Part shown: positions 30,301 to 64,000 of the stretch, in pieces
Layout: the number at the start of each line of letters is the position of its first letter
How positions within the stretch are numbered: position 1 is the first letter of the stretch
Origin: Sphaerodactylus townsendi
Lineage: Eukaryota
DNA length: 64,000 nt
Direction: 5' to 3'
Assembly: GCF_021028975.2 (NCBI RefSeq)
Contig: NC_059439.1
Location: 23,064,001-23,128,000 of the forward strand
The notes under the pieces: model-generated
The model's database searches: none
What the model was told of the DNA's origin: nothing
Seen by the model: only the letters and a program-made list of their open reading frames with translations
Position numbers and translations under genes: made by a program

Positions 30301-30362
30301 TCATACCTTCTAGCCAGTGTTTATTTTAGTAAGTAAGTGTACTATATTATATTATTTTCCTG

Positions 30363-31697: not shown

Positions 31698-31755
31698 TTA
31701 CTGTATATCTCCAACAAATGTCTTGGAAATCCCACATTTGTTCATAAGTCTCCTT
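31698..31755 (-). pseudogene. OR deletion remnant (last ~18 codons, RRLMNKCGISKTFVGDIQ*)
   Basis: OR4/5-like C-terminus fused directly to sequence homologous to the OR4 upstream intron (~49680). Confidence 0.8.
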
Positions 31756-34586
31756 TATATTATTATATACTTAAATGTAACTTGGCACCTGAAAGACCAC
31801 TTTTTGTTGTGAAGTTAATTGTTCAACTATTAACTCATATAATAGATAGGAGTCATAACTCTTTTTTTGTATTTTTCAGGTTCAAATTTAATAGACCCAG
31901 AAATCTTTTTTTTAAAAAAAACCCAAAATATTGGTCTTTTTACCCTGCCTTGGAATTCCACATGGGTCTTACAGGCAGCAGGCATGTGGACTTCTGATTC
32001 AAGCAAAGAGTAAAATATTGGGATCAGCCAGTACTAGTCCAGTGTTTCACTGTAGGATCCGTCTAGCTGGGTCTAGCTTTCAACTGCAAGCTCAGCCTGG
32101 CCAGGTCTCGAGTTGAATGACGGGCTCTGCCTCTGAAACTCACAGAGGAGAGGTGAGGAAGTGAAAATGGACAGGACATTTTTTGTGAGGGTAATGTAGT
32201 GGGCTGAATTGCCCCCCAAAAAAATCTGAAAAAAATAGCATTTTGAGGGAATCTGTTTTGATGGCTCCTTTCTTGTCCCACCCCTTTTTAAGTGAAAAAA
32301 TACTCCCCCCCCAAAAAAAATAAACCCAAAAGTAACATGAAAGTATTTTTAAGGATTTTTCAGGTTCAAGTTTATCAAATATTTACCTGTAATAATTAGC
32401 AATCTCACTGTTACTTAATAACAACATTAAATAAAAGATTGCAATCCATTTTTAGTGCTGGGCCATAAGATGGCTAGCCAAAGATGTCAGTCATTTGTTT
32501 GTTTGTTTGTTCATTTGTTTTATATCATTGAACTGATGTAATTTTCTTCTTCATTTTATCCTAATAGCCTGTGAGGTAGGTAGCACTGACAGTGTGTGAA
32601 TAATTTTGTCTTACACTCCCATTCTGTAAAGGTTTTCTAAAAGAGTGGAAACCTAGGAAGCTTTCTGATCTGCAGTACTACTATCCATTTTGTGGAAAAT
32701 AGCTGTCGCCTGTATTTTGATATTCGCCCCAATTGGTCATGAAAATATTCTGAATGGAAAATAACAAAACACTCATTTACATCTGAAGACATAAGCTAAA
32801 TGACTTGTAAGAGTACAAGCACTGGGCTGGATCCAGATTACACTGGCAGTTGCCACCTATTGTACCTTCCCCTCTTACATGTTCCTCATGCCATTCTCCA
32901 AGGTTCCTTATTCGACAGGAGCAGCATTTCATGAAGATTGGTGACCTAAAGTGAAAGGGGAAAAGCAGGAAAGTTCTATCGTTGAAAAATCTAGCCAGGC
33001 TCTAACCCATGAGTAGAATGTATCTAACTTTTCAATCCAATCGGCATCCATGACACAAAATTTTGTCCATGCTGGTTGCAGGATCTCAAGTGTAACTACG
33101 TTGGTGATTTTCCTACATGTTCCACCAGAATTTGTTGTATCTAACGAGATATCAGGATCATGTTCTGGATGAATACACATTAAGTCCCCCCCCCCCAAAA
33201 TTTATTTTACAAACTAGGGATGGAGTGAAAGCTCACTTCAATGTAATCTTTCCTCAAAGGTTCCAAGACTGTCCTCCTCAAAATAAACCTGTTTTTCCCC
33301 TCTGTGTTGCATGAGCATTTTTTAGAGATGAGCTCATTTGTTTGTTTCTTTTAAATGTAACTATTATAATAGCATCCTCCTGTGCCCTGAAATGGAGCCT
33401 TGGGTTTCATAGGAGCGTTCAATTAGGATTATTAAATAACATCCACTTCTGTGTGAATTTCAGGTTGAATTAGAAAGTGGGTCATATTCAAAAAGACATT
33501 GAGTACAATCTGGTTAAAAGAGAATTACATTGTAGCAATCAGTTGTTTTGGACAAGTATGGCTTTGTCTTGAAGGAAGTTCTTTCTACCAAATGGAAGGC
33601 CTTTCATCTGACAGGTTATTTTTCAAAGTGTACGGGCATTATTTGATCCAGCTGTATGTATTTTCTCAGAAGTATTTTCTAAGAATCGCAAGGGGATTTT
33701 TGGGGGGCATTAAATAAGATATGTGAATAGTAATTTTAAAAACATTACCTTTAACCATCGAGTGGCATCAAAAATGGATGACTGAGAGGTAGATAACTGC
33801 TGCACACTTATCCAGCTATTGTGTGAAATGAACATTACCTCATGGAGACAATCAAATGTTGCCACTTCACAAGTTCAAGCATTACACAAAAAAGGCTTTA
33901 TAAAGGGAATCAACAGACTGTCTACAGAGAGCAATCTCTTGATAGTTTAAAGAAGGAATTTCAAAACAATTAGCAAATTCCCCATCTAAAACATGTGATC
34001 ATTAAGGCTTCAAATACTCCTGTGTGTTACTTGAAATGTTGTTTAGAAAAATGTGTCACCTCTCAAGAAACATACTTAAGTGGGTTTCATAGGATTATTT
34101 TTCAATGATTTCCTTAAAAAATAGTCCTTTTTTCATGCCTTTTAGATTAAATACCGAAACAGCCTTAACCAACATATAACAACATAAAAAGGATTTTTTT
34201 AAAAAAAATGAAGACCAAATTGAGCTCTTCTCCTGGGACAAACTAAAGTACCTTGTCTCACAGCTGATCATGGCCCCAGCAGCGACCATCTGCTTTTCTT
34301 AACCATCCAGTTTCTAACAGTGAATTGCCTGGGTTGCTTGTGAAGGTGGTCAGGGAAGTTCATCTGGTGCAAAATGTTAAGGCCAGTTGCAGAGATAGTA
34401 TTTAATGAACATTGTATCGGCTGCCCTGGTGATTTCTTGTTTCTGCCCCAGGCATATGAAGCCAAAAGAAAGGTGTAAACAGTCCCTCCTGTTTACAGTC
34501 AGGCAAAGCAGGCAGGCGTGGGATGCAAGGGAGTGTGAGCATGTGCCAAATGGACATGCTGCTTCCATAGAGGCAGAAAACACTCA

Positions 34587-35653
34587 GGCCGTTTCCGCAC
34601 GGCCAAAAGCAGCGACGCGATGACGTCGCAAATTGCGACGCATCCCAAAAAAAGCGTTCACACAGACAGGCGGAGCTGCTTGATCCAGCAGCCCGCAGAA
34701 ATGTGGCTTGGTTACGCGCGCAGGCGCTTCGCGAGGCGGCGTCTCGCTGACGTTAAGCCTGCACGCGCCTTGCGGCCGATGCAGGCCCGGCGCCATTTGT
34801 GGCGACAGCTCCGTGGCGGCTGTCCGCACGCAGTCGCGGCGTCGTAAATGCGTCACATGGGGAAAAAGAGGCGTTCCGCTTACGGCCAAAAGCAGCGATG
34901 CAGATGCGCATTTCGCAAATTGCGACGCATCCCAAAAAAAGCGTTCACACAGACAGGCGGAGCTGCGGGCGTCCGCAGCCCCCGAAATGTGGCCAGTTAC
35001 CGCACGCAGAGCGCTGCGGAAGGCGGCGTCTCCAGCGATGTGTGCGCCTATGCGCCTTGCGCAACCCGTGCAGGCCAGCGCCATTTTGGCGAGCAGCTCC
35101 CGTGGCGGCTGTTACCGCCCGCGAAGTCACCCGGCGTCGATGCGTCACATGGGGAAAAAAGAGTGGTTTTAAGCGTTTTCTGGAATACGTCTTAGCGCGG
35201 TTTAAGCGTTTTGGCGGCCAGTAGCGATGCGCCCACCTCCGCGCTGCGGCGTGCGAGGCAGCGCTCTCGCTCTGGCCTTCTTTTCCGTTCGCGGCAGCGT
35301 CATAATGGCTATTTTGCCACGTCGCGAGCTTGGCCAGAGTGGTTTTCAAGCGTTTTCTGAATACACCGTCTTGGCGCCCGGTTTGCAAGCGTTTTAGCGA
35401 CGGCGACTTCTCGCGGCACCCTCACGCCGCTGCGGCAGCTCTGGCCGCTTCTTTTTTTCCGTTAGGCGGCGTGTATTTTGCCGATGCGGAAGCGTAGAGT
35501 GGTTTCAGCGTTTTCTAGATACACCCGTCTTAGCGCCCGGTTTAGTTTTATGACGGTAGCGACTCGCCCTTCGTCGCGTCAGCGCTTATCTCAAGCTCTG
35601 ACGCTTCTTTTTCCGTTGCGACGACGTCATATTTTGCCCGTGCGGAAACGGCC
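34587..35653. mobile_element. CpG-rich non-autonomous Harbinger-like element with internal tandem repeats
   Basis: TIR GGCCGTTTCCGCACGG; ~285-bp x2 and ~170-bp x3 internal repeats; absent at the paralogous site ~58340. Confidence 0.8.
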
Positions 35654-36236
35654 CCAGCTTCCATTTGATGCCTAAGAGCTGTCTGCTTCAAAAGTGACCA
35701 GGATCATCCTCTGAGTTGAGTGCTGGCAGCTGTTCTCTGGCTATCCTAAGACTTCTCCTTCTGGCTTGCATGTCTTCTCCTATGCACCTGTGCCTCCTTT
35801 CTAAATGCAGGGGAGAGTCCAGTGTACTGGGGAAAGTGGCTGGTTCCATGGGTTCAGAATCAGGAGGGGTGAGAGGCATCAGATGACCAAAAATGATGTC
35901 CTTACCCCCCAGAGGTTTTTCACCATAGCAAGGTTTTTTTTAAATAGTAAATGTGTTTGCTCTCTTGCTCTTTGGAAGATAATTTAAAATTATTCACTTT
36001 CAAAAGGATTTTCCCAGGTGCTGACTATATAACTTTACAATTTAATGGTGACGCTGCTGATTATATAAATTTACAAGACTAGTGGAATGTGTGTATTAGA
36101 GCAATACTGAAGGGGAAACATGATACAAATAGGCTAGATCCAACCAGCTTTTCTGTGACTAAAAAAGGAGGAGGGATATATTTGATAACCAAAAATCCTA
36201 TGCTGGGGATCATCAGATCTGTGTGGACATAAGCCA

Positions 36237-36237
<1 letters not shown>

Positions 36238-36267
<30 letters not shown>

Positions 36268-36590
36268 AAGAGGAGGAGGAGGAGGAGGAGGAGGAGGAGG
36301 AGGAGGAGTTTGGATTTATATCCCCCCTTTCTCTCCTGCAGGAGACTCAAAGGGGCTTACAATCTTCTTGCCCTTCCCCCCTCACAACAAACACCCTGTG
36401 AGGTAGGTGGGGCTGAGAGAGCTCCGAGAAGTTGTGACTAGCCCAAGGTCACCCAGCTGGTGTGTGTGGGAGTGTACAGGCTAATCTGAATTCCCCAGAT
36501 AAGCCTCCACAGCTCAGGCGGCAGAGCTGGGAATCAAACCCGGTTCCTCCAGATTAGATACATGAGCTCTTAACCTCCTACGCCACTGCT
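36238..36590 (-). mobile_element. tRNA-derived SINE (Squam3-like) with a (CCT)n(CTT)n tail
   Basis: Head AGCAGTGGCGTAGGAGGTTAAGAG..GGTTTGATTCC; absent in the paralog at ~59420. Confidence 0.75.
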
Positions 36591-36900
36591 TTAGGAAAGA
36601 ATGTAATTGGGTGAGATTAAGTGGAGCAAATAGATAAAATCTACCCATTCTCAAAGAGTATTTACTACTAGATGTAACAACACTGTTCTGATGTTGTTTG
36701 AACTTTTTACAGAAACTTTACTGGTGGCATTTGATCTGTGAAAGTTATGTTTCGCACCCAAGTTAACATTTAATATTGCAATGATTACAGAGATGTGATG
36801 CCAATAAATTAGGCATTTCCTACTTCAGAAATATTGTCAAATAATATGCAGTTTATTTAAGACTACACTCAAAATACAAATATGTAAAACATATTTTCCA

Positions 36901-37863
36901 TTATAAATGTTTGGCTTGAGCACTGGCATTCTGAAGTAAAGACACCTTACTGTTCCTCTGTGGTCTTAGCACAATGATGTAGCACTTGGGGAAAAAGACT
37001 AAACCAAGTAAAGCAGTGCTGGAAGCCAAGATGGAGAAGATCTCCACAGTCACCATGGACTTGCCCCTATTGCTCCAATAAGCTGGCACAAAGGACAACC
37101 AGACACAACAAAAGACTAACATGCTGAAGGTGATGAATTTGGTTTCATTAAAAGCATCAGGCAACTTCCTGGCTAGGAAAGCCACAGTGAAGCTGACCAT
37201 GGATAGAAAACCCATGTAGCCGAGTACAGAGTAGAACATGGCAACAGATCCTTCATTTACCGTGGAAACCAAAGGTTAATTTTTTTCCATGCTCTGATGT
37301 CTTCTCCAGATTTGGGAATGGAGGTGAAGTCCCCAGCCAAACAGCACAGATGCCAACTTGAATCAGGGAGAAGAAGATAACCAAGGTCATTGCCAGTCTT
37401 TTCCCTATCCATTTACGCACCCTACTTCCTGGGTTTCTGGCCAGAAAAGCCAAGACCACAGTGATCGTTTTTGCCAAGAGTGAGGAAACTGCAACCGTGA
37501 AGACGATGCCAAAAGAAATTTGTCCAGTGAGGAGAAGGCAGGTCCATTTTTTCCTTGGTTTTTTGCAAAGGAATTATCAAGAAGAACAAAGGAAGCACTG
37601 GGGGAAGCAGAAGGGAGAAAAGAAAGAAGGAAAGTGAGGGTCTTGGTTGTTGGCTTTCCTGAATTGGTGTGTTCCCTGTAATGATTTCAATGAATATTCC
37701 CTAGAACTATAACATGTGATGAGGGAAAGAAACCCTGCAGAGGTTGTCATGATGATTCCCAAAGGCTCTTCATATGACAGAAACAAAATGACCTTTGGAA
37801 TACATTTATCTTGCTGGTCATTTGGGTATTGTTCTTCAGGGCATTCCTCACAATAATCCATAT
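36901..37863 (-). pseudogene. V2R-A exon 6 (cysteine-rich end plus 7TM), frameshifted as assembled
   Basis: [15 protein letters not shown] and AFLARNPG motifs; 963 bp versus 920 bp for the intact paralogous exon; scattered small insertions that may be sequencing error. Confidence 0.7.
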
Positions 37864-38067
37864 CTGAAATTTGCAAAAAGATATCCATGACAATTTTATT
37901 AATGAGGTTGTAAAAGAAGAGGAAGAAATGAAGCAAAGTAATTTCATATGAAAAGTAATTCTGCTTAGTATGGGATTGAACATGGCTCTGAAAATCTGGA
38001 TCTGATTAGCTGTTTGAAAAACAACGTGAACACTGATAATTGAATACTGATATTTTTAGTTGCATGG

Positions 38068-38816
38068 GGATGTTTGGAGACTCATTTCGTCAGAAAGAAT
38101 ACTAACACAACTTGTTGGAATAGAAATCGGCCGCAGCCCAAAATTTATTTAACACATAACCAAGAAACCTTGAAGCTGGGCGAGCATGCACCCAAGGCAC
38201 ATCCTATTTTGGCCCCAGGTAGCAAACCAGCTGAACCCTGGTTATAGAAGACAGCCCAAGCTAGACCCCTTAGGCCCTTTCGGACAGGAACCCTGTCCGG
38301 CACATCGAGGGAGCGGAACAGGAAGGTACTGAGGTGCCACAAGGATTGCAAACCCAATTTGTGACACCCCTCCCCTGCCGGAGACAGCGAGGCTCTCCAG
38401 GCGCGCGACCCCCCCAGGCTTGGCTTTTGAGAGCTGCTCATCATGCACCACCGGACCTCCCTTAAGGGAGGCCCCGAGGTGGGAAGGTCCGGCAATGCAA
38501 GGCTTCTGCCTTCCCCAAATAGGATGTGCTCTTATGCCATACCGCCCGAGAAGTGAACTGCGACCAAAAACATAACAATGAACAACCCCTCAAAAAACCC
38601 CTTCCAATTGGGACAGGGAGGGAGGGCCTTAAAACGATCTGGCCTTGAAAGAGGCCCAACCCCCGCCGATGCAGCCTTTTAAGGCTGCCAGAGGCCCCTG
38701 TCACGTGCCGGCACCCGGCCACGTGACCGCCTCATCCGGCCGGTGGGAGGAGGAAGAAGCCTCCAATCGTCCCTCCTCCCTTGCAACAGCGCCTCCAGGC
38801 TGAAGCCTGAGGCGCG
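38068..38816 (-). mobile_element. DIRS/Ngaro-like non-autonomous element in V2R-A intron 5
   Basis: CACGTG boxes, TTAAAAGG, AATAAA-TTTTGGGCTGCGGCCGATTTCTATTCC; same family as 2590; absent in V2R-B. Confidence 0.5.
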
Positions 38817-39224
38817 ATTAAGCTTTTAAACATACAACTATATTTGTAGATAATCACTCAGTTTCATTCNNNNNNNNNNNNNNNNNNNNNNNNNNNNNNN
38901 NNNNNNNNNNNNNNNNNNNNNNNNNNNNNNNNNNNNNNNNNNNNNNNNNNNNNNNNNNNNNNNNNNNNNNNNNNNNNNNNNNNNNNNNNNNNNNNNNNNN
39001 NNNNNNNNNNNNNNNNNNNNNAGATCTTTGTTCATATGGGTTCCATGGCCACCCAAATGTTATTTTTGCTGGTTACATACAATCTCTCTGTCTACCCAGT
39101 AAAAAAAAAATTCGAAGGTAAAATATGTATTGTAGGAGCTACATGTCTGTTAGAAGAATTTCAATCCACCTCATCAACTCCACTCCAATGTAGGCTAGAT
39201 AGTGACAGCTTAAGTGACACGTAC

Positions 39225-39348
39225 CTTTTTGGTTAGAGATTGCTCCTTCCATGCACTGGACACAATCAAAGCAACATGATAACTTCCCAAGTGGAACTAT
39301 TCTTCTAAAGCCAGAATGGCAACTTTCACTGCACACAGATGTTGGTGT
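39225..39348 (-). CDS. V2R-A exon 5 (124 bp, nine-cysteine domain)
   Basis: TPTSVCSESCHSGFRR..CCFDCVQC; AG/GT borders. Confidence 0.9.
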
Positions 39349-39817
39349 CTAAGTATAAATGTGTGCGTTATATTGATGAAAATGTATTTCAATAAGCATA
39401 AATATACAAGGAATAGAGTATTTCAGGAATAGACAAAAGGCCCATCCAATGCAGCATTCACTTACCAACAATAACTAATGTGATGTTTCCAGGAAGAATG
39501 AAAGTCAGAGCTCTCTCTAGTTGCTTGCACCCCCAGTAACTGGTATCCCAACCTTTGGAATATGAAATTCCATTTAGCTGAAAGGAATGTGTCTAACTTT
39601 TTTTTTAAAAAAAGTCATATCAGTGGTTTCTATGAGCACAGATTATCCACATCACTTGGATGTTATATGTGAATAACTAAGGACATTATTTTGCAAAATG
39701 TGAAGACATACATTCTGTGCACCACCCCAAAAAAGAAACCCCCCTAAGTTTTTCTGCAATGGGCATGTCTACCAAATGCTTTACTGTGGTTGTCAGACAA
39801 GCCTTCTGAGCAGCTAA

Positions 39818-40071
39818 GGTCAACTCTGCATGGGCCAAAAAGCATCCCTGGAATGGTAAAAATGCTGCTCCAGGGGTGCTATTTGCATGGCTTCCACGTT
39901 TGCAATGAGGCAGCGCCATGCTTTTCTCCTGAAACTAGTGGGAAAGAGTGACTTTTGGGAAACAGCATTTCCTCACCAGTGCCTCCATATCCCCCCACAC
40001 TTAGGGGCATCATACACCAGCTTCATACATGCCAATGGGAAGCTGCTTCCCTGGGCCATGCAAAGTGGACC
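39818..40071. mobile_element. Harbinger-like MITE
   Basis: TIR GGTC(A/C)ACT(C/T)TGCATGG; TSD TAA; absent in V2R-B. Confidence 0.65.
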
Positions 40072-40653
40072 TAAGATTCTTTGATCCACGTCCGCATAGC
40101 TGTGAAGATAGTTCACCTAAAATTTTAAAAAAGAAAAACTATATACTGCCAGAATCTGCAGGACAAGCTGAGTACAACTATTTACTCTTTAGGCTGAACA
40201 GGGACCAAAGATTGGAGCATAAAGAGAAAATGTCCTGGGGCAACCTGCAGTAAATGGCAGCAAGGAGAATCCCTTCTGCAGCACACAAAATATCAGGCAC
40301 AAGCCAAGGGTGAAACTTACCACTGAGGCAAATGGTCAGGCAGGAAAAATAAGACACCCCCTGACCTCCTCTGTTCCACACAGCAAGTCAGGAAACATCT
40401 TACAGGTGGGTGCATTTTTGGAATCCTCAAAAAAAGATGTCTTTCGATGAAATAAGACATTTTGAAGACATCTTTGGAAAAAAGCTGCATGGAGTTTCTT
40501 CCCTAGGCATCTTTTTTTAAATACATCTAATTTCAGCTGTGGAATTTGAAACTACTTGCTCTCTGACTGCTGAAAGCACCAGTGAACAAGTTATTCAGTA
40601 AGAAGAATGTTCCTAACACAATCCCTTCATGTCCTTCCATCATTGCTCCTGAC

Positions 40654-40881
40654 CTGGTTAAACCTGGTGTTCCACACTATAGCTTCTTCACTGATGACAA
40701 TGACTTCACTCGTGGAAATCTGAGCTGCAAGATATCCAACCTGGGTAGGAAGTGGGGTATTATTTGGCAAAATGGCCCAGTTCAGAATGTCATATCCAGC
40801 ATTCAAATCACCATTCCTGTCAAAAGATACTTCCTCACCAGCTGTGTTGTTAAAGTGGACATTCCTCAAGAGAGAATTTAG
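40654..40881 (-). CDS. V2R-A exon 4 (228 bp)
   Basis: LRNVHFNNTAGEEVSFDRNGDL..YDILNW; AG/GT borders. Confidence 0.9.
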
Positions 40882-41332
40882 CTAATTTTAAAAGAAGGAA
40901 AAAAAATACAACACAGATGTATGCATATATAACCAGGGCAGCATCAGGACTACAATGACATTACAGAAGGCCCTTTGTATTGTTTAGAAACAATTCTAGT
41001 AAAACATATGGGATGCACCCTTGGACAAGGGTACTTCTCTCACATAAAGGGATTTTCAGCATGCTTCTTGTTGATGCAGTCCCTAGTACCATCTGAAAAA
41101 AAAACTGTAAGAGGTCCTCCAGAACAGTCCCATAGACTGTATGATAATATCACCCCTACACCATAAGCATTCAGAAGTGTTTTACTTATGCAAAACATGG
41201 TGTTGAATCAATCACAATTTCCAGGAATATGGAACTCCTTTCACCACAATAGGGCATTTAATTTCTGTAATGAAAATTTACTTTGCTTTGTCAAGCAGAA
41301 TACAGTTTATTACATTATTGGTCACTCATGTA

Positions 41333-41884
41333 CCGGCGTATAAGACTACTGGGCGTATAAGACGACCCCCCCCCCCACTTTTCCGGTTAAAATATAGAGT
41401 TTGGGATATACTCGCCGTATAAGACTACGTCAAATGCTTATGGCATGCAGCTGCTGGACGTCTCTAGGAGAACTCCAAAGAATCGTGCCCCGAACAACTT
41501 GGGGAAATTTTTTCACTCCGAGGAAGAGGAGAAACTTGACCCTCCCTTTCACATTCACAAAGTTTCCAGATCATATCTCCCTCGGGGGGGGGGGGCGCAC
41601 TGACAGTTGCACTAGGATCATGGCAAGTGGTGGCGACGGGCTGAAGTTGCACAGACAGGGAGGCAGGCAGGTGGCTGGCCAAGCTAGAGTAGGGCAAGTT
41701 TCATGTTCAGGAGTGAGGAACTGAACCCAGTGTGCGGGGGGTGAGCAGCAGCATCAGCAGAGCTGCTGCTCCAGATCCTGGGCACTCAGTACCACCTGCT
41801 CAGTAGCCAGCATATAAGACGACCCCAGACTTTACAGATGATTTCCCAGGGTTCAAAAGTAGTCTTATACACCAGTATATATGG
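41333..41884. mobile_element. Tc1/mariner (pogo/Tigger-like) MITE
   Basis: TA TSD; inverted ends GG(C/T)GTATAAGACTACT; empty site catgTAacag at 63897-63906. Confidence 0.75.
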
Positions 41885-41911
41885 TAACAGTTTTCTAATA
41901 GAGGTGGTTAC

Positions 41912-42727: not shown

Positions 42728-43447
42728 CTAAGAAAGAAGAGCATGGTGATTTCCCATTAAAAATCAGAACCCTGTCCATTTCTAACATTCTGTATTTTTG
42801 CACTGCTTCATATGAACCTTATATTTACATGAAATTTGGAATTTGTTACATTACATTTCAACTTGATGCCTTGTTAATATTGGTAGTACTCATCCAATTT
42901 CTGAGATCACGTATACACCGATTTAAATACAGCTTTAATCTGTGAGCCATAATTCAGCTACAAATAGCTATTTAAAAACATTTTTGATATTGAGAGCTAG
43001 GGCAGCTTTGCTGTGTTTCACATAAAGATGTTAGTAGACTGTATATTTCTCCACAGAACTCAACGTGCTGAACCTTCTATGTTGTAGAATCCTCCACCTG
43101 GGCCAAGTGCCTACCCAGCCCTACTCCCAACCATTTACTTGAAGGTTTGGTGATGGTTCTTCAATGAACTATAAATGCTCTGGTATTAAAGTACCATGTG
43201 CAATAATGCACAAAATAAAAATTTTGAGAAAGGCAGTACAAAAAATAAGCAATAATGCTCATATTAATTTGGGACTATATTCTACTGTGGAAGCATACAA
43301 TTTTCTTGACGGCTGCATCTCCACTGACCCAACTAACATCTTCATGTGAAACAGTATAATTTATTACTGCATTCAATATAATGATGGACAAATAAGAAGC
43401 GATGTGACTTTTTTTTAGTGGTGGGGAATGTTTTCTTCTGTGACTTA

Positions 43448-53540: not shown

Positions 53541-53549
53541 GCTGCCCAA

Positions 53550-54020: not shown

Positions 54021-54989
54021 TTACTGTCTATCTCTAACAAATTTCTTAGAAATCCCACATTTGTTTACAAGTCTTCTTAAAGCATTTTTAACCTCTTTGT
54101 TTCTTAGACTATAGATAAGGGGATTAATTAGCGGGGTTAAGACTGTATAGAAAACTGAAAAGATCTTGTCTACTTCTTTCAGAGCTTCTTTTTTTGGTAG
54201 CAAATATACAAATATCAGCGAGCCGTAAAATATGGAGACTACAGTAATGTGGGAAGAACAGGTGGCAAAGGCCTTTTTTCTTCCATCAGAAGATGGAATT
54301 CGTACAATGGCACCAATTATACGCACATAAGACAGTAAGGTCAGAAGGCAAGGAGGAACCCCATCTATGAAACAGACCGTGAGTCCCACTAGTGTCACCA
54401 GAGTTGTGTCACTGCATGATACATTAAGCATTGTTGTGTGGTCACAAAAGAACTGATCAATTTCATGGGGACCACGGTATTCCAGCTGTGACATCAAACT
54501 CACTAATAAAGTCATAACTGTTATCCCCCAAAGCCAAGATACAGCTGACATCACAAAGCAGAGCCTTCCGCTCATGAGGGTTGCATATTGGAGGGGCTTG
54601 CATATTGCCAAATACCGATCATATGACATTGATGCCAGCAGGTAACATTCAGCAATCGCCAGTGCAGTAAAGCAATAAAGTTGGATGAAGCAGCCCCCAA
54701 GAGAAATAGTTCTGTCCCCTGTCAGAAAGCTGGCCAACATCCTGGGCAAAATGGCTGAAGTATAGAAGGTCTCCAAACAAGACAAGTTTCCAAGGAAGAA
54801 GTACATGGGAATGTGAAGGTGATGATCCAGTATTACTAAAACAATGATGATGATGTTTCCAGTCATGGTCACACTATAGATTATCAGGAAAACCAAGAAG
54901 AGAGGAATCTGAAGTTCAGGGGCATCCCCAAATCCAAGAAGGAGAAACGTAGCTATGGTTGTTTCATTGGCTGTCTCCATAGTCTTCAT
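54021..54989 (-). CDS. Olfactory receptor OR5 (family-11-like), 322 aa
   Basis: Canonical TM motifs; ECL2 YCGP changed to YRGP. Confidence 0.92.
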   Translation of the reverse strand: MKTMETANETTIATFLLLGFGDAPELQIPLFLVFLIIYSVTMTGNIIIIVLVILDHHLHIPMYFFLGNLSCLETFYTSAILPRMLASFLTGDRTISLGGCFIQLYCFTALAIAECYLLASMSYDRYLAICKPLQYATLMSGRLCFVMSAVSWLWGITVMTLLVSLMSQLEYRGPHEIDQFFCDHTTMLNVSCSDTTLVTLVGLTVCFIDGVPPCLLTLLSYVRIIGAIVRIPSSDGRKKAFATCSSHITVVSIFYGSLIFVYLLPKKEALKEVDKIFSVFYTVLTPLINPLIYSLRNKEVKNALRRLVNKCGISKKFVRDRQ

Positions 54990-55649
54990 CGTCTCAATCA
55001 CTGAAACAGAATTTCAAAAACAATAAGATCTAAAAGTGAAAGATCCAAAGCCTTAATGTTGCTAAACACTTAAATATAAATTGAAAGGCCATTTTTTGTT
55101 GTGAAATGTTATTTTGTTATTTAGCTAGTATCTCTGTGCTGAACAAATGTTTCCTGCTCTGCTCCTCCACCTTTTTAGATAAGTTTTTGTTGGATTTTAC
55201 AGCCTTGCTTGCATTCAACAGTATGGAATTCTGGGAGATCCCTATGAACATTCTAAAGATGACAATTGAAAACAGGTTGCTCCCTGCTTCTTGTTTTGGA
55301 AAAAGACATTACGTGTTCTGTTCAACCAAAAAGGCTCTGACTGAAATGTTTAATATTGTAGACTATGATTGAAATTGTAACCAAATGATGAACTGTGAAT
55401 GTATCTGTTTAAGAGTATTTTTGCCATCAAGGTACTTTTCAGAGGTGTTTTTTTTTCTGGTTCAGGTTTACCAAACACCCACCTGTAATAATAGGCAATC
55501 TCGTTGTTACTTAATTACAACATTAAATAAAAGATTGCAATCCATTTTTAGTGCTGGGCGATAAAATGGCTAGCTGCAGATGCCAATCATTTGTTTGCTT
55601 GTTTGTTCATTTGTTTTACATCATTATGCTGATGTCATTTTAGTTTAGT

Positions 55650-55843
55650 GCCCCCCCCCCCCAGTTGGCTTTTTCATCTCGGCCTATCATCTAATGGGAC
55701 TCTGCCCTCCCTCTCTCCTGGGGAGAATTTTAAAAGTGGGGTGGCGGACGCCTCTATTATTGTTATCGCTGTTTTAAAGGTTTTAGTAATTTATTTATAA
55801 TTATATTTTATGTTGTACACCGCCCAGAGCCCCTAGGGGATTG
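55650..55843 (+). mobile_element. L2 3' UTR fragment running into a gap
   Basis: Ends gtacaccgcccagagcccctaggggattg, as at 15390-15420. Confidence 0.65.
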
Positions 55844-56810
55844 NNNNNNNNNNNNNNNNNNNNNNNNNNNNNNNNNNNNNNNNNNNNNNNNNNNNNNNNN
55901 NNNNNNNNNNNNNNNNNNNNNNNNNNNNNNNNNNNNNNNNNNNNNNNNNNNNNNNNNNNNNNNNNNNNNNNNNNNNNNNNNNNNNTTTTATCCTAATAAA
56001 AGCGTGTCAGGTAGGTTGCACTGACAGAATGTGACTAATTTTGTCTAAGCCCATTCTCATTCTGAAAAGTTTTGCTAAAACAGTGGAAACCTAGGAAGCC
56101 GTCTGATCTGTAGTCCTACGATTCATTTTGTGGAAAATAGCTGTCCCCTGTATTCTGGGTCCAGCAATCCATAATATTCACCCCCATTGGTCCGAATGGA
56201 AAATAACAAAATACTCATTTACATCTGAAGACATAAGCTGAATGACTTGTAAGAGTACAAGCACTGGGTTGGATCCAGACTACATTGGTAATTTCCACCA
56301 ATTCTACCTTCCCCTCTTCCTCATGCCATCCCCTAGGGTTCCTTATTGTACAGGAGCAGCATTTCATGAAGATTAGTGACCCACAGTGAAAGGGGGAAAG
56401 CAGCAAAGTTCTATCCTGCTGTTGGAAAATCTAGCGAGGATCAAACCCAACATTTTTGTTTCATGATTAGGATGAATCCAACTTTTCATTCCACCTCAAC
56501 CAATCGGCCTCCATGACCCAAAATTGTGTCTATGCTGGTTGCATGATCTCAAATGTAACTAGGTTGGTGATTTTCCTCCATTTTTCACGAGCAAAAAAGT
56601 GGTTGTATCTAATGAGATGTCAGGGCCATATTCAGGATGAATGCACATTAAGTTTTCCCCCTAATTTATTTTACAAACTAGGAATGGAGTGAAAGCTCAC
56701 TCAAAGGTTATCTCTCCTCAAAGGTACTAGTACTGTCCTCAAAATAGACCGGCTTTCCCCCCCTCTGTGTTGCATGAGCATGTATTAGAGATGAGCTCAT
56801 TTGTTTCTTT

Positions 56811-56951
56811 GGCCCCTTCTGCACAAGCAAAATAATGCGTTTTCAAACCACTTTCACAATTGTTTGCAAGTGGATTTTGCTATTCCGCACAGCTTCAAAG
56901 AGCACTAAAAGCAGTTTGAAAGTGCATTATTCTGAATGTGCGGAATGAGCC
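56811..56951 (-). mobile_element. 141-bp Harbinger-like MITE
   Basis: Same family as 21772. Confidence 0.8.
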
Positions 56952-57678
56952 TCTGTTTTAAATGTAACGATTATAATAGCATTCTGCTGTGCTCTGAAAT
57001 GGAGCCTTGGGTTTCATCGGAGTGTTCAATTAGGATTATTAAATAACATCCACTTCTGTGTGGATTTCAGGTTGATTTAGAAGACCTTGAGTACAATCTA
57101 GGTGCAAGAGTTTTACATTGTAGCAATCAGTTGTTATGGACAAATATGGCTTAAAGGAAGTCCCTTCTACCCACTGGAAGGCCTTTCATTTGACAGGTTA
57201 TTTTTCACAATGTATGGGCATCATTTGATCAATCTGTATATATTTTCCCAGAATGACTTTCTAAGAATCCCATGGGTTTTTTTTAGGTAGAAAGAAATAA
57301 GGCATTAAATAAGATGTGTGAGTAATAATTGTTAAAAATATTACCTTTAACCATCAAGCAGCATCAACAATGAATGGCTGAGAGGTAGATAACTGCTGCA
57401 CGCTATACAGGTATTGTTTGAAATGAACAACATTACCTCATGGAGACAATCAAATGTTGCCACTTCACAAGCTTATGCCTTACTCAAAAAGGGCTTTATA
57501 AAGGGAATCAACAGACTGTCTACTGAGAATAATCTCTTGATAGTTAAAGGAAGGAATTTCAAAACAATTAGCAAATTCCCCATCTGAAACATATGATCAT
57601 TAAGGCTTCGAATATTCCTTTCTGTTATTTGGAACCCTGTTTGGAAAAAATGTGCAACATCTCGAGAAACCTGCTTAA

Positions 57679-57819
57679 GGCTCATTCCGCACATGCAGAA
57701 TAATGCACTTTCAAACTGCTTTCAATGCTCTTTGAAGCTGTGCGGAATGGCAAAATCCATTTGCAAACTGTTGTGAAAGTGGTTTGAAAACGCATTATTT
57801 TGCGTGTGCGGAAGGGGCC
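57679..57819 (+). mobile_element. 141-bp Harbinger-like MITE
   Basis: TSD TAA; empty site tgctTAAgtgag at 51681. Confidence 0.85.
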
Positions 57820-58132
57820 TAAGTGAACTATAACAAGTGAATTGTCTTGATTACAGGATGATCCATATATTTTCAATGATTTTTCCTTAAAAAATAATCC
57901 TTTCTTTTTCATGCCTCTCTGATTAAATACCTAAGCATCTTGAACACAAAAAGGAATTTATTAAAATGAACACCAAATTGAGCTCTTGTCCTGGGACAAA
58001 CTAAACAACCTTGCCTCACAGCTGATCATGGACCCGATGGTGATCATCTGCTTTTCTTTACCATTCAATTTCTAACAGTGAATTTCCTGGGTTGCTTGTG
58101 AAGGTGGTCAGGGAAGTTCATCTGGTGCAAAA

Positions 58133-58657
58133 TGTTAAGACCAGTTGCAGAGATGAAATTTAATGAACATTGTATCAGCTGTCTTGGTGATTTCTTGTTT
58201 CTGCCCCCAGGCAAGTGAAGCCAAAGGAAGGTATAAACAGTCCCTCCTTTCTAGGGTCAGGCAAAATAGGCAGGCCTGGGTTGCAAGGGAATGTGAGCAT
58301 GTGCTAAATGGACATGTTGTTTCTACAGATGCAGTAAACCCCCAGTTTCTATTTTATGCCTAAGAGCTGACTGCTTCAGATATGACCAGGATCATCCTCT
58401 GAGCTGTGTGCTGGCAGCTGTTGTCTGGCTATCCTCAGACTTCTCTTTCTGGCTTGCATGTCTTCTCATATGCACCTTTCCCTCCTTTCTAAATGCAGGG
58501 GAGAGTCCAGTGGATTGAGGACAGTGGCTGGTTCCATGGGTCCAGGGTCAGGAGGCTTCAGATTCCAAAGATCTGAGCTGCTTGTTTGTTCTGATCTGTC
58601 AGAATCAGTTTCTGCTAACAACAAGAGCAAGAGGGTCAACAGCTGACAACCATGACT
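58133..58657 (-). mobile_element. Old Gypsy-like LTR remnant (paralog ~34375-35880)
   Basis: ATTAAA..TTAACA end and an RRSLRIA-like U3 segment; boundaries approximate. Confidence 0.3.
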
Positions 58658-59758
58658 GACCAAAGTCTTCCTCCTCTTCGCCATCTGTGTCAACAGCAGC
58701 TTTGTCCGGGGAGGCCACGACAATAGAAGTTAAAGCTCAGATAATGCTGACCAACATGTTGGGTGCCACCTCCAAATACCTTGTTGGCTGTATTGCTAAT
58801 GTGTTTGCTTTGGGAGAACTCCATTCATGAATGATTCAGAGTGCTCGCCAATGTTCTTATCTGCCTTACGTGACCCTGCACATTCCTTCCTCTTAATTAG
58901 GGCCCCACCAGTTGAAAAAAGCCCTGCTTAGTTATCAAGAGCCTGCTCCTAGCTGACAATATAAAACTGGGGGTGGGGGAGGGAGAGTGGTATCAAAGTT
59001 AATTTGAAGCCCCCGAACAAAATCCTTTTTTTGGTCCAGAAGAAGTGGCTCTTCCCATTTGGACAACAAAGAGCAGGTAGAAGGGAAATATTTGCAAATG
59101 CCTGGTTGCCCTTGGCAAACCTAGATGTGGTTGCCAACTATAGGTGGGAAAATTCCTGGAAATATGGGGGTGGAGCCTCGGCAGGGAGGAGTTTGGGGAT
59201 AGGAGGAAACTCAGCCATGGTGTCATGCCATAGAGACCAGCATCTGAAGATTTACAAGACTGGTGGAATGTGTACATTACAGCAAATTTGAAGGCAAAAC
59301 ATGATACAAATAGGCTGGATCCAACCAGCTTTTCTGTGACTGAAAAATGGAGGAGGGATATATTTGATAACCAAAAATCATATGGTGGGGATCATCAGGT
59401 CTGTGCAGACAAAATCAATGAGAGATGGGTATTTTAGTAAAGAAAAAAAAAGGGTGAATTAATAGAGCAAATAGACAAAATCTACCCATGTTCAAAGAGT
59501 ATTTACCACTAGATGTAAAAAGACTGATGTGGTTTCAGCATTTCACAGAAGCTTTACCGGTGAAATTTGAACTGTGTAGGTCATGCTATGCACCATAGCA
59601 TGTAGGTCATGCTATGCACCATAGCATTCAATATTGCAGTCATTACAGAAATGTGATGCCAATAAATTAGGCATTTTCTACTTCAGAAATACTGTCAAAT
59701 AATGTGCAGTTTATTTAAGATTTCACTCAAAATACAAACATGTAAAACATATTTTCCA

Positions 59759-60678
59759 TTATAAATGTTTGGCTTGAGCACTGGCATTCTGAAGTAAAGA
59801 CACCTTACTGTTCCTCTGTGGTCTTAGCACAATGATGTAGCACTTGGGGAAAAAGACTAAACCAAGTAAAGCAGTGCTGGAAGCCAAGATGGAGAAGATC
59901 TCCACAGTCACCATGGACTTGCCCCTATTGCTCCAATAAGCTGGCACAAAGGACAACCAGACACAACAAAAGACTAACATGCTGAAGGTGATGAATTTGG
60001 TTTCATTAAAAGCATCAGGCAACTTCCTGGCCAGGAAAGCCACAGTGAAGCTGACCATGGATAGAAAACCCATGTAGCCGAGTACAGAGTAGAACATGGC
60101 AACAGATCCTTCATTGCAAACAAGGTTAATTTTTCCATGCTCTGATGTCTTCTCCAGATTTGGGAATGGAGGTGAAGTCCCCAGCCAAACAGCACAGATG
60201 CCAACTTGAATCAGGGAGAAGAAGATAACCAAGGTCATTGCCAGTCTTTTCCCTATCCATTTACGCACCCTACTTCCTGGGTTTCTGGCCAGAAAAGCCA
60301 AGACCACAGTGATCGTTTTTGCCAAGAGTGAGGAAACTGCAACCGTGAAGACGATGCCAAAAGAAATTTGTCGGAGAAGGCAGGTCATTTTCCTTGGTTT
60401 TGCAAGGAATATCAAGGAGCAAAGGAAGCAGAGCAGAAGGGAGAAAAGAAGAAGGAAAGTGAGATCTTGGTTGTTGGCTTTCACAATTGGTGTGTTCCTG
60501 TGTTCAATGAATATTCCTAGAACTATAACTGTGATGAGGGAAAGAAACCCTGCAGAGGTTGTCAAGACAATTCCCAAAGGCTCTTCATATGACAGAAACA
60601 AAATGACCTTTGGAATACATTTATCTTGCTGGTCATTTGGGTATTGTTCTTGTGGGCATTCCTCACAATAATCCATAT
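59759..60678 (-). CDS. V2R-B exon 6 (7TM domain), intact
   Basis: [45 protein letters not shown]; phase-1 acceptor. Confidence 0.95.
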
Positions 60679-60906
60679 CTGAAATTTGCAAAAGATATCC
60701 ATGACAATTTTATTAATGAGGTTGTAAAAGAAGAAGAAGAAGTGAAGCAAAATAATTTCAAATGAAAAGTAATTCTGATAAGTATGACATTGAACATGGC
60801 TCTGAAAATCTGAATCTGATTAGCTGTTGGAAAAACATTGTGAACACTGATCATTGAATATTGGTACTTACAATTATTTTTTAGTTAGCTTTAAAACAAA
60901 CACCCA

Positions 60907-61203
60907 GGCCCCTTCCACACATGCAGGGATAGGGAACCTGCGGCTCTCCAGATGTTCAGGAACTACAATTCCCATCAGCCTTTGTCAGCATGGCCAATTG
61001 GCCATGCTGGTAGGGGCTGATGGGAATTGTAGTTCCTGAACATCTGGAGAGCCGCAGGTTCCCTACCCCTGCACACATGCAAAATAATGCATTTTCAAAC
61101 CACTTTCACAACTGTTTGCAAGTGGATTTTGCCGTTCCGCACAGCTTCAAAGAGCACTGAAAGCCGTTTGAAAGCGCATTATTCTGCATGTGCGGAATGA
61201 GAC
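60907..61203 (-). mobile_element. 141-bp Harbinger-like MITE interrupted by a hAT MITE
   Basis: Family sequence resumes after 61071. Confidence 0.8.
60924..61071. mobile_element. 148-bp palindromic hAT MITE
   Basis: TIR CAGGG(A/G)TAGGGAACCTG; perfect 8-bp TSD CACACATG. Confidence 0.88.
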
Positions 61204-61472
61204 CTAGATTTGTAGATAATCTCTCATTTCATTCAATTCCCCAGCTTGCTATATAGCTCATACTCCATGAGATCTTTTTCCATATGGGTTCCATGCCCCC
61301 CATGGTATTTTAGCTGACTAAATAGAATCTCTCCATCTACCCAGTTAAAAAAAAAAACCTAGCAGGTATAATATGTATTGTAGGAGCTACATCTCTGTTA
61401 GAATAATTTCAGTCCGCCTCATCAACCCTACTCCAATGTAGGTTAGATAGTGACAGCTTAATGGACACATAC

Positions 61473-61596
61473 CTTTTTGGCTAGAGACTGATCCTTCCCT
61501 GCATTGGACACAATCAAAGCAACATGATAACTTCCCAAGTGGAACTATTCTTCTAAAGCCAGGATGGCAACTTTCACTGCACACAGATGTTGGTGT
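61473..61596 (-). CDS. V2R-B exon 5 (124 bp)
   Basis: CSESCHPGFRR..CCFDCVQC; AG/GT borders. Confidence 0.92.
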
Positions 61597-61766
61597 CTAA
61601 GTATAAAAGAGTGTGTTATATTGATGAAAATGAATTTCAATAATCATAATTATACAAGGAATAGAGTATTTCAGGAATAGACAAAAGGCCCATCCATGCA
61701 GCATTCATTTACCTACAATAGCTAATGTGTTGTTTCCAGGAAAAAATAAAAGTCAGAGCTCTCTCT

Positions 61767-61798
61767 TGCCACACAGCCCGGAAAACCCACCAGAACCA
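61767..61798 (+). mobile_element. ~32-bp Penelope-like 3' micro-insertion
   Basis: gccacacagcccggaaaacccaccagaacca with TSD ctctctct; absent in V2R-A. Confidence 0.55.
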
Positions 61799-62048
61799 CT
61801 CTCTCTAGTTGTTTGCACCCTCAGTAACTGGTATCCCAACCTTTGGAGTATAAAATTCCATTTAGCTAAAAGGAATCTGTCTAAGTCATATCAAGGGTTT
61901 CTATGAGCACCGCCTATCCACATCACTCAGATCTTATATGTTAATGACTGAGGACATTATTTGGCAAAATGTGTTTTTATTTGACATATGTTCTGTGCAG
62001 CGACCCCCCCCAAAAAAAGAAACCCAAAAGTTTTTCTGCAATGGGAAT

Positions 62049-62142
62049 TTATTTTTATTTTATTTATTATTTAGATTTTTATACCGCCCTATCCCCGAGG
62101 GGCTCCGGGCGGTGTACAACAAAACTAATATAAATCAAGTTC
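62049..62142 (-). mobile_element. Short L2 3' tail
   Basis: TSD gggaat; absent in V2R-A. Confidence 0.65.
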
Positions 62143-62552
62143 GGGAATGTCTACCTAATGTTTCTCAGTGGTTGGCAGACCAGTCTTCTGAGCTGTTAAC
62201 ATTTTCAGAACTGTGTCCACATAGCTGTGAAGTTAGCTCATGCACAATTTTGAAAAAGGAAAATTATATATTGCCAGAATCAACAGGACGAGCTGAATAC
62301 AACTACGTACTCTTTGAGCTGAACAGGTACCCTGGATTGGAGCAGGCAGAAAAAATGTATTGGGGTAACCTGGAATAAATGGCAGCAAGGAGAATCCTTT
62401 CTGCAGCTCACAAAATGTCAGGTGCAAGCCGAGGGTGAAACTGACCAGAGAGCCAAACGGGCAGGTAGGAAAAAATAAGAAACCTATTGAACTCCTGTGC
62501 TCCACACAACCAGGCAGGAAACATGTTGCAGGAGGGTGCACTTTTTAGCCTT

Positions 62553-62979
62553 GGCCCTTTCTGCACGGGCCCAATACAGCGCCCTGGGGACGGCAAAAAC
62601 ACCGTCCCCAGGGATCTGTTCGCATGGGGGGCACAGCTGTGAGGTTTTGGGGGAACAGCGGCTTCCAAACGCTGCCATGCAAATGGCAGCGGCAGGAAGG
62701 CACCATCCCTCCCCCATTTCCCAATCAACTTACCTTCCCTGCGACCGTCCGGCGTGTCGCCGAGGCCGGGGGACACGCCCCCCTGCCCTGCAACTCCGGA
62801 GCAGTTGCGCAGGGCAGAGGGGGCATGTGTCTGGCCTCGGTGATGTGCCGGATGGTCACAGGGAAGGTAAGTCAATCGGGCGACAGCACAGCGCGGCACT
62901 GTCGTTCTGGTAATTTCCGGGACCGTTCGCACGTCATGTACGCCGACTCAACCCTCACCGTGACCATGCGGAAACGGCC
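62553..62979. mobile_element. GC-rich Harbinger-like non-autonomous element
   Basis: TIR GGCC(C/G)TTTC(T/C)GCA; related to 46423. Confidence 0.75.
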
Positions 62980-63216
62980 TTCAAGTTGAAATAAGGCGTC
63001 TTGAGAACATCTTGGGAAAAAAGCTGTGTGGAATGCCTTCCAAAGACGTCTTTATTTTTGCACCTTTAATATGTGTTATTAAAGCTGTATAATGACCCCA
63101 TGTTACATTTGAAACTACTTGCTCTCTGACTGTGAAAAGCACTAGTGAAAGAGATATTCAGTAAGAAGAATGTTACTAACACATTTCCTTCATGTCTTTC
63201 CACCATTGTTCCTGAC

Positions 63217-63444
63217 CTGGTTAAATCTGGTGTTCCACACTATAGCTTCTTCACTGATGACAATGACTTCACTCGTGGAAATCTGAGCTTCAAGATATCC
63301 AACCTGGGTAGGAAGCGGGGTATTATTTGGCAAAATGGCCCAGTTCAGAATGTCATATCCAGCATTCAAATCACCATTCCGGTCAAAAGATACTTCCTCA
63401 CCAGCTGTGTTGTTAAAGTGGACTTTCCTCAAGAGAGAATTTAG
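63217..63444 (-). CDS. V2R-B exon 4 (228 bp)
   Basis: Near-identical to 40654-40881. Confidence 0.92.
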
Positions 63445-63927
63445 CTAATTTTAAAGAAGAAAAAAGAAATACAACACAGATGTATGCATATATAACAAGG
63501 GCAGCATCAGGACTACAATAATATTAGAGAAGACCCCTTGTATTGTTTAGAAACATTTCTAGTAAAACGTATGGGATGGATCCAGTCTTGGACAAGGGTA
63601 CTTTTCTCACACAAATGAATTTTCTTCTTGCTCCTTGTTGATGCAGTCCCTAGCACCATCTCTTAAAAAAACCCTGTAAGAGGTTCTCCAGAACAGTCCA
63701 TTAGAATGTATGATAATATCAGCCCTATACCATAAGCGTTCAGTAGTATTTTCACTTCTGCAGAACATGGTGTTGGATCTATCACAATTTCCAGGAATAT
63801 GGAACTCCTTTCACCACAATAGTGCATTTAATTTCTGTAATGAAAATTTGCTTTGCTTTGGCAAGCAGAATACAATTTATTACATTATTGGTCACTCATG
63901 TAACAGTTTTCTAATAGAGGTGGTTAC

Positions 63928-64000
63928 CTGCCATGCATGAATATCATGGAGCTCCACTCTAGCTGCTTTTTTCTTTGCTGTTTGTAAACAGTACATTTCA
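63928..64000 (-). CDS. V2R-B exon 3, 3' end (gene continues beyond the window)
   Basis: ..ARVELHDIHAWQ|GT, matching 41912-41985. Confidence 0.85.

What the first reader, a model, noticed from the sequence alone, without database searches (positions are those of the whole stretch)
31698..64000. An OR and a V2R are co-duplicated as one tandem cassette
Seen: all on the - strand, the order is OR remnant (31.7k), V2R-A, OR4, V2R intron remnant (53.6k), OR5, V2R-B. The OR-upstream and intergenic DNA is colinear among the three copies, so the amplified unit is one class A OR plus one class C V2R. Each V2R ends only ~2-3 kb from the next putative OR promoter. Known: ORs and V2Rs normally serve different epithelia and G proteins and usually expand in family-specific clusters. 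Inference: the cassette couples the copy number of the two families and might share enhancers, give V2R-to-OR read-through, or place these V2Rs in main olfactory neurons (or these ORs in vomeronasal neurons).
Basis: partly seen in the sequence, partly recalled or inferred. Interest (0 to 1): 0.75.

Follow-up and report, generated by a model that had tools for sequence, protein, structure and literature searches.

The report
Old OR-V2R neighbour pair, tandemly triplicated
In this gecko a roughly 18-kb block holding one smell-receptor gene (OR) and one vomeronasal-receptor gene (V2R) was copied in tandem to three copies that then lost one partner or the other; the pair is likely an old lizard neighbour pair copied passively, and shared control of the two genes is untested.

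Summary
At 30.8-64 kb lie three colinear copies of a V2R + OR unit of about 17.7 kb. Their non-coding DNA differs by 0.11-0.19 substitutions per site, and short-read contigs bridge the OR4/V2R-A junction, so they are not haplotypes. OR4 and OR5 are sisters, with dS 0.18 like the flanks.

New here: the V2R belongs to a lineage found as one cluster per lizard species. Its RefSeq accession is consecutive with this OR subfamily in 2 of 4 species checked (Euleptes, Hemicordylus), so the adjacency is likely ancestral to squamates. V2R-A's exon-6 frameshifts are assembly error. V2R-A and V2R-B exons look homogenised by gene conversion.

Both V2Rs have AATAAA 44 nt after the stop, and the ORs keep the upstream block of OR-only units.

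Best reading: passive unequal-crossover duplication at an OR/V2R cluster edge, followed by birth-and-death. Expression was not tested.

The parts
30817..31706 (-). 3' flank of the copy-A OR; left end of the repeated unit
   Evidence: matches OR4 3' flank 47571-48640; closest to the 13.7-14.4k copy, K2P 0.048
31707..31754 (-). OR remnant of copy A: last 16 codons; rest of CDS deleted
   Evidence: tblastn 81% over 16 aa; junction joins the 48693-equivalent to the 49666-equivalent
31755..34213 (-). OR upstream region, copy A; holds the conserved promoter-like block at about 33616-34080
34187..36900 (-). V2R-to-OR intergenic DNA, copy A; AATAAA 44 nt after the V2R stop
36901..45369 (-). V2R-A, six exons (45369-45152, 44272-43984, 42727-41912, 40881-40654, 39348-39225, 37863-36901); likely intact
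   Evidence: exons 1-5 give 558 aa with no stop and GT-AG introns; the 43 extra letters of exon 6 are absent from contigs of runs X1 and X3; Pfam ANF_receptor
45370..47570 (-). V2R-A upstream DNA with two repeat insertions; no match to OR upstream DNA; unit boundary at about 47571
   Evidence: boundary bridged with 0 differences by contigs 47234-48412 (X1) and 47092-48412 (X3)
48639..49604 (-). OR4, intact 321-aa class A olfactory receptor (middle copy)
49605..51830 (-). OR4 upstream region; promoter-like block at about 51233-51688
52511..52782 (-). surviving 270 bp of the middle copy's intergenic DNA
   Evidence: 86% to 34187-34462 and to 57949-58221
52890..53542 (.). repeat insertion at the deletion junction that removed V2R exons 5-6 of the middle copy
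   Evidence: matches 25104-25677 and itself inverted; high contig depth
53546..53864 (-). V2R intron-4 remnant of the middle copy, joined to the OR5 3' flank at a short AAG microhomology
   Evidence: 84% to 39465-39782, 76% to 61799-62048; junction read
54021..54989 (-). OR5, intact 322-aa class A olfactory receptor (copy B)
   Evidence: sister of OR4, SH-aLRT 98
54990..57973 (-). OR5 upstream region with two copy-specific MITE insertions and an N gap; promoter-like block at about 57198-57679
57949..59758 (-). V2R-to-OR intergenic DNA, copy B; AATAAA 44 nt after the V2R stop
59759..64000 (-). V2R-B: exon 6 (open, 305 aa), exon 5, exon 4, end of exon 3; the rest is outside the window
   Evidence: Pfam 7tm_3

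Best explanation
The three blocks are real tandem copies of a V2R-plus-OR unit of about 17.7 kb, likely made by unequal crossing-over at the edge of an OR array where an old, likely single-copy lizard V2R already sat next to this OR subfamily, and the two genes likely travelled together only because they were neighbours. Steps: (1) inferred - a squamate ancestor had this V2R beside this OR lineage; (2) shown by tree - geckos expanded the OR lineage into OR-only units; (3) shown - in this lineage the end OR and the V2R were copied together to three units; (4) shown - deletions removed the OR CDS of copy A and the V2R of the middle copy; (5) inferred - gene conversion has kept the V2R-A and V2R-B exons nearly identical; (6) inferred, untested - each gene keeps its own promoter and poly(A) site and is expressed in its usual organ (OR in main olfactory, V2R in vomeronasal neurons).
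For: Colinearity and offsets. Non-coding K2P among the three copies is 0.11-0.19 in all 4 three-way segments of OR upstream, intergenic DNA and V2R intron. OR4/OR5 dS is 0.183 against 0.33-0.35 to OR-only genes; they are sisters at 98. The V2R falls in a clade of support 100 with one cluster each from Euleptes, Eublepharis, Paroedura, Hemicordylus, Anolis and Sceloporus. Accessions: Hemicordylus V2R XP_053120532 and OR XP_053120531; Euleptes V2R XP_056720501 and OR XP_056720500. The 6 other V2Rs looked up in these two species lie 20-411 numbers away. Reciprocal losses and OR-only units. AATAAA at +44 in both V2Rs. OR upstream block shared by all 6 OR units aligned. Unequal crossover, conversion and gene death are the standard mechanisms for OR and VR clusters (PMC1995454, passages).
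Against: Accession order is only a proxy for gene order. It was consecutive in 2 of 4 species; Eublepharis has three other V2Rs between (803 vs 804, 805, 807, ORs 810 and 815) and Paroedura is at least 274 away. If the adjacency has really lasted since early squamates, neutrality explains that less easily than shared control. Local trees disagree: upstream DNA pairs A with B, the OR 3' end pairs middle with B (0.043), so history is mosaic. The right end of the array is outside the window, and no genome is held. No expression data were available.
Confidence: 0.72

Rival explanations
1. The V2R and the OR have stayed adjacent because they share cis-regulation, for example an element in the 2-3 kb between them. 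This divergent V2R would then be expressed in main olfactory neurons, or the OR in vomeronasal neurons, and the cassette duplicates a regulatory unit.
For: Likely long-lived adjacency. The V2R lineage is divergent, 44% or less to other V2Rs, and low-copy. The middle copy kept 270 bp of intergenic DNA with an O/E-like site (34229, 52549; motif recalled). In mouse VNO, canonical OR neurons and cross-class co-expression occur, and 47.7% of co-expressed pairs share a chromosome (PMC11630819, abstract and passages).
Against: The 270-bp block is no more conserved than other non-coding DNA (0.11-0.16). O/E-like matches are not above chance in the window (20 vs 13.5 +/- 4.3; 7 of 100 shuffles reach 20). 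Partners were lost in 2 of 3 copies. Corn-snake V2Rs tested keep the usual VNO pattern (PMC3590772, passages), though this lineage was not among those identified as tested.
Confidence: 0.15
2. Promoter capture or read-through, as for rodent vomeronasal FPRs: a V2R promoter or transcript drives the downstream OR.
For: Head-to-tail spacing of 2-3 kb; precedent in rodents (PMC7873101, passages). A RefSeq model (P0122) splices from the end of OR5 through 52.9k to 50.5k, but that is OR-to-OR-upstream and its RNA support is unknown.
Against: No V2R promoter or first exon lies directly upstream of an OR CDS; the middle copy lost exactly the V2R promoter and exons 1-4. ORs keep their own upstream block. 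AATAAA at +44 in both V2Rs.
Confidence: 0.05
3. Selection favours extra dosage of this one V2R, and the OR hitchhiked. Two near-identical V2R copies are kept and homogenised.
For: V2R exon 6 differs at 6 of 696 clean columns, and exon 3 end to exon 5 has dS 0.044, against 9-21% in introns and flanks. Poisson p is 0.007 or less for exon 6 and 0.007-0.08 for exons 3-5. Contig depth hints at about two copies in a second organism, D.
Against: Conversion between close tandem copies needs no selection. One of three V2R copies was deleted. Only 141 ectodomain codons could be compared (9 non-synonymous, 4 synonymous codon changes).
Confidence: 0.05
4. The copies are haplotype or assembly duplicates.
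For: The window has four N gaps and an error patch in V2R-A exon 6. The 53864 junction was not among the listed bridged places, and contigs are cut at 53794-53836.
Against: Non-coding divergence of 10-20% and copy-specific MITE insertions. The 47571 junction is bridged without differences in two samples; the 52782 junction is bridged in a second organism. Exon 3 shows two versions, each near single-copy depth (31.7 of 67.1 in X1; 78.7 of 164.2 in X3).
Confidence: 0.03

Closest known systems
Birth-and-death evolution of OR/V1R/V2R tandem clusters (review PMC1995454, passages seen)
   Same: Tandem duplication, gene conversion giving mosaic or homogenised paralogues, repeat insertions, pseudogenes.
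   Different: The review describes mostly homogeneous single-family arrays; here the repeated unit spans two unrelated families (class A OR and class C V2R).
Squamate V2R tandem clusters (Komodo dragon 10.1101/551978; rattlesnake PMC12400810; passages and figure legends seen)
   Same: V2Rs expand by tandem duplication; the Komodo cluster figure shows non-V2R genes among the V2Rs; six-exon structure.
   Different: This V2R is from a low-copy lineage outside the large expansions. The passages seen do not describe an OR+V2R repeated unit.
Rodent vomeronasal FPRs (PMC7873101, abstract and passages seen)
   Same: A class A GPCR coding exon next to vomeronasal-receptor genes in a dynamic cluster.
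   Different: There the foreign exon sits behind a V1R or V2R promoter and first exon. Here each OR has its own OR-type upstream block and no V2R first exon in front of it.
Conserved single-copy V2R-426-chrm5 of snakes and family-C V2Rs (PMC12400810, PMC3590772; passages seen)
   Same: A conserved low-copy V2R among many fast-expanding ones.
   Different: That gene is reported from fish to snakes. The window's lineage gave only lizard hits above 44% identity. It was not compared directly with V2R-426 or mouse Vmn2r1-7.

Membership tests
V2R (class C GPCR) | Six exons; ANF-receptor ectodomain plus 7tm_3; groups with V2Rs | tested here: met
   77.5% to Euleptes V2R over exons 1-5
V2R (class C GPCR) | Expression in vomeronasal neurons | not testable with these tools
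Family-C / broadly co-expressed V2R (V2R2) | Orthology to mouse Vmn2r1-7 or snake V2R-426, conserved back to fish | tested here: inconclusive
   no reference family-C sequence in the tree; best non-lizard hits are 44% or less and the clade holds lizards only, which argues against but does not test it
Class A olfactory receptor | Single-exon CDS of about 310-320 aa with Pfam 7tm_4 | tested here: met
   OR4 and OR5, E 5e-53 and 6e-54; dN/dS 0.20-0.36 among the four - strand ORs
Tandem segmental duplication (true paralogues) | Colinear head-to-tail copies with similar divergence along the unit | tested here: met
   exceptions are the V2R exons and the OR 3' end, which are more alike
Tandem segmental duplication (true paralogues) | Junctions present in other sequence data | tested here: inconclusive
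   47571 bridged in X1 and X3, 52782 in X4; 53864 not among listed pieces; 31755 outside the stretch laid
FPR-type promoter capture | Foreign coding exon placed behind a vomeronasal-receptor promoter and first exon | tested here: not met
Copy-number-coupled cassette | Both genes retained in each copy; neither duplicates alone | tested here: not met
   2 of 3 copies lost a partner; OR-only units at 0-31 kb

The most novel reading that the evidence does not exclude
A divergent, single-copy lizard V2R lineage has stayed next to one OR lineage since early squamates because the two share regulatory DNA. The V2R is then a main-olfactory V2R (or the OR a vomeronasal OR), and this gecko's partly deleted cassettes are a natural deletion series that separates the shared element from each gene.
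Probability: 0.13. Interest if true: 0.75.

Novelty: new variant of a known kind. Interest (0 to 1): 0.4.

Why it matters
On the best reading this is a clear worked example of two unrelated chemoreceptor families being duplicated together at a cluster edge and then uncoupled by deletion. It also points to a conserved low-copy lizard V2R lineage beside a gecko-expanded OR subfamily. And it corrects an assembly error that makes V2R-A look like a pseudogene, which matters for gene counts. If the pair shares regulation, the locus would give a direct test of how neighbouring receptor genes are sent to different olfactory organs. I found no report of an OR+V2R repeated unit in 10 literature searches (open-access library only, so subscription papers are not covered).

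Tried and rejected
No whole genome is held, so the dot-plot could not be extended past 64 kb.

Run search: no RNA holder listed; this is no evidence on expression.

V2R-A as a frameshifted pseudogene: rejected. The 43 extra letters are one-sided insertions in patches and are absent from contigs.

ORs nested in a V2R intron: rejected. V2R-A exon 1 lies at 45369-45152, before OR4.

The 53.5k remnant as a dispersed repeat: not supported. It has only two other matches in the window, and the homologous V2R-A stretch has single-copy-like contig depth at 90% likeness (29.6). An older repeat is not excluded.

A repeat as the crossover site at 47571: only weak matches (E 1e-12 between 46416-46946 and 13162-13647); not shown.

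O/E motif scan: not above chance.

More copies of this V2R from the window's species: none listed (length limits; only the best 120 shown).

The Policarpo 2024 supplement (PMC10869828, file 2, cut when stored): the first 18 places per term showed counts, not coordinates; two files were too large to read and might hold coordinates.

Earlier scan findings: 0 in both look-ups.

The careful V2R tree did not finish; the quick tree was used. Two long fused Phrynosoma models (P0003, P0004) were left out of it.
Full report
Source. The DNA is from a gecko. V2R-A exon 3 is 75% identical to a Euleptes V2R, and a record named Sphaerodactylus townsendi (P0122) matches OR5 at 100% over 322 aa. No whole genome is held. 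The window has four N gaps.

Anatomy. On the - strand from left to right: OR remnant 31707-31754, V2R-A 36901-45369, OR4 48639-49604, V2R intron-4 remnant 53546-53864, OR5 54021-54989, V2R-B from 59759 to the edge. Self-BLAST gives three colinear copies, which I call A, middle and B. From the start of the OR 3' flank in A (30817) to its match beside OR4 (47571) is 16.75 kb; adding the roughly 0.97 kb of deleted CDS gives a unit of about 17.7 kb. In transcription order the unit is V2R upstream, V2R, 2-3 kb, OR upstream, OR, 3' flank. In the middle copy one deletion joins the OR5 3' flank to V2R intron 4 at a short AAG microhomology. A second deletion, with a repeat at the junction, removes exons 5-6 and most of the intergenic DNA. 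Left of 31 kb are OR-only units: intact ORs at 3034-3981 and 26365-27333, several fragments, and a more distant + strand OR at 20821-21771. tblastn with four full V2Rs found no V2R exon there.

Are the copies real? Non-coding K2P distances among the three copies are 0.135-0.154 (V2R intron), 0.112-0.156 (intergenic), 0.127-0.186 and 0.145-0.181 (two OR-upstream segments). A 145-bp MITE sits at six places, different in each copy. I laid 4 of the 8 holder runs on 34500-54400. Contigs bridge the 47571 boundary with no differences in X1 and X3, two samples of one study, one of which may be the assembly source. The 52782 junction is bridged in X4, a second organism. Exon 3 shows two versions, each near the depth of unique pieces (31.7 of 67.1 where listed unique pieces are 17.6-29.6 in X1; 78.7 of 164.2 where they are 56.5-70.8 in X3), which fits paralogues rather than alleles. 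The tool warns that contig depth is not a copy number, so this is a hint. In X8 (organism D, about 95-96% identical in the cleaner non-coding pieces) exon 6 has depth 69.4 against 25-47, hinting that the duplication predates that split. The 53864 junction was not among the listed pieces, and 31755 was outside the stretch.

V2R-A is likely intact. Exons 1-5 have GT-AG introns and give 558 aa without a stop. Exon 6 has 43 letters more than V2R-B, all on the A side and in patches. The X1 contig at 37168-38083 has exactly 43 gap letters and an A-type intron end. At 37265, 37660 and 37661 no covering contig carries the window's letter. This looks like unpolished long-read gap filling (inference).

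Co-phylogeny. OR4 and OR5 are sisters (SH-aLRT 98, quick tree of 41 rows). Their dS of 0.183 matches the non-coding distances and is about half that to OR-only genes (0.33-0.35). The histories are mosaic. Upstream DNA leans to A+B (11 vs 4 and 5 shared derived sites with one outgroup; 8 vs 4 and 4 with another), while the OR 3' end pairs middle with B (0.043). V2R-A and V2R-B exons are far more alike than their introns: 6 differences in 696 clean columns of exon 6 and dS 0.044 for exon 3 end to exon 5, against 9-21% in introns and flanks. Poisson p is 0.007 or less for exon 6 and 0.007-0.08 for exons 3-5. Gene conversion is the likely cause. Polishing of the assembly could contribute, but the doubled depth of the exon-6 contig suggests the identity is also in the reads.

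Origin of the pairing. Searching with the Euleptes ectodomain gave five other clusters at 56-77% identity, one each from Eublepharis, Paroedura, Hemicordylus, Anolis and Sceloporus, then a drop to 44% or less (best 120 of 1291 shown, 8000 candidates scored). No snake or lacertid member appeared. These and V2R-A form a clade with support 100 (quick tree of 50 rows). The Euleptes cluster has two records 99.9% alike. The closest OR subfamily has one Hemicordylus hit among the best 120 but many in geckos. In Eublepharis, Paroedura and Hemicordylus the V2R and these ORs share a contig length. RefSeq accessions are consecutive in 2 of 4 species with both genes: Hemicordylus ..531/..532 and Euleptes ..500/..501 (the second Euleptes set is 4-6 apart). 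They are 7-12 apart in Eublepharis, with three other V2Rs between, and at least 274 apart in Paroedura. Six control V2Rs from Hemicordylus and Euleptes lie 20-411 away. That accession order tends to follow gene order, and that geckos and cordylids split about 190-200 million years ago, are recalled, not tested. So the adjacency is likely old, and the cassette copied a pre-existing neighbour pair.

Function. Copy number is not coupled: A lost its OR, the middle copy lost its V2R, only B may keep both, and the OR subfamily multiplies alone. Both V2Rs have AATAAA 44 nt after the stop. All six OR upstream regions aligned share one block with an invariant TAAT-core stretch; five were long enough to show a shared GT-donor-like motif (reading these as a homeodomain site and a 5' exon is recalled knowledge). 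V2R-A upstream matches only repeats. The defining layout of rodent FPR promoter capture (PMC7873101, passages) is absent. O/E-like sites in the intergenic block are not above chance. Cross-class co-expression exists in the mouse VNO (PMC11630819, abstract and passages), so shared regulation remains possible. Expression was not tested.

Comparison and verdict. The mechanisms are those known for OR and VR clusters (PMC1995454, passages) and for squamate V2R arrays (10.1101/551978, PMC12400810, PMC3590772, PMC13398492, PMC10869828; passages only). What is new is a two-family repeated unit and the likely ancient pairing of a low-copy lizard V2R with one OR lineage. Ten searches of the open library found no such report; unread supplements of PMC10869828 may bear on this. 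Verdict: new variant of a known kind, interest 0.4. The shared-regulation reading has probability about 0.13 and would deserve 0.75.

Noticed in passing
window 36901-37863 vs 59759-60678; 40654-40881 vs 63217-63444: V2R-A and V2R-B exons are 1-5% apart while their introns are 9-21% apart: exon-limited homogenisation, likely gene conversion.
   Followed up: partly
window 37260-37720: 43 one-sided inserted letters break V2R-A exon 6 in this assembly but are absent from short-read contigs; gene counts would wrongly call it a pseudogene.
   Followed up: yes
window 50950-51830: OR4 upstream carries more derived changes than copies A and B (35 vs 19 and 24; 39 vs 21 and 20; p 0.02-0.04 in 3 of 4 tests, 0.19 in the fourth) and lacks a TATA-like stretch that the other aligned copies have.
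   Followed up: partly
window 54024, about 52900, 50521-50492: RefSeq model P0122 extends OR5 by 34 residues, spliced through the repeat at 52.9k into OR4's upstream region; a similar segment lies upstream of OR 3034 at 4758. RNA support unknown.
   Followed up: partly
window 9809-14883 vs 27287-31755: A younger OR-only duplication (91-96% identical). The 14.5k OR pseudogene is the closest relative of the 31.7k remnant's 3' flank, so copy A's OR either left a daughter without a V2R or the remnant is a chimera.
   Followed up: partly
window 21769, 30363, 48389, 56807, 57679, 61066: A 145-bp MITE with terminal inverted repeats, 91-96% identical among copies, inserted after the cassette duplications.
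   Followed up: no
window 20821-21771 (+): An intact OR of another subfamily (53% to OR4) on the opposite strand, inside the OR-only array.
   Followed up: no
proteins P0254, P0271, P0299, P0256, P0257: A second small V2R clade (support 100) has Eublepharis accessions ..804..805..807 beside the same ORs, and a Zootoca member 34 numbers from its OR: the region may be a mixed OR/V2R cluster in lizards.
   Followed up: partly
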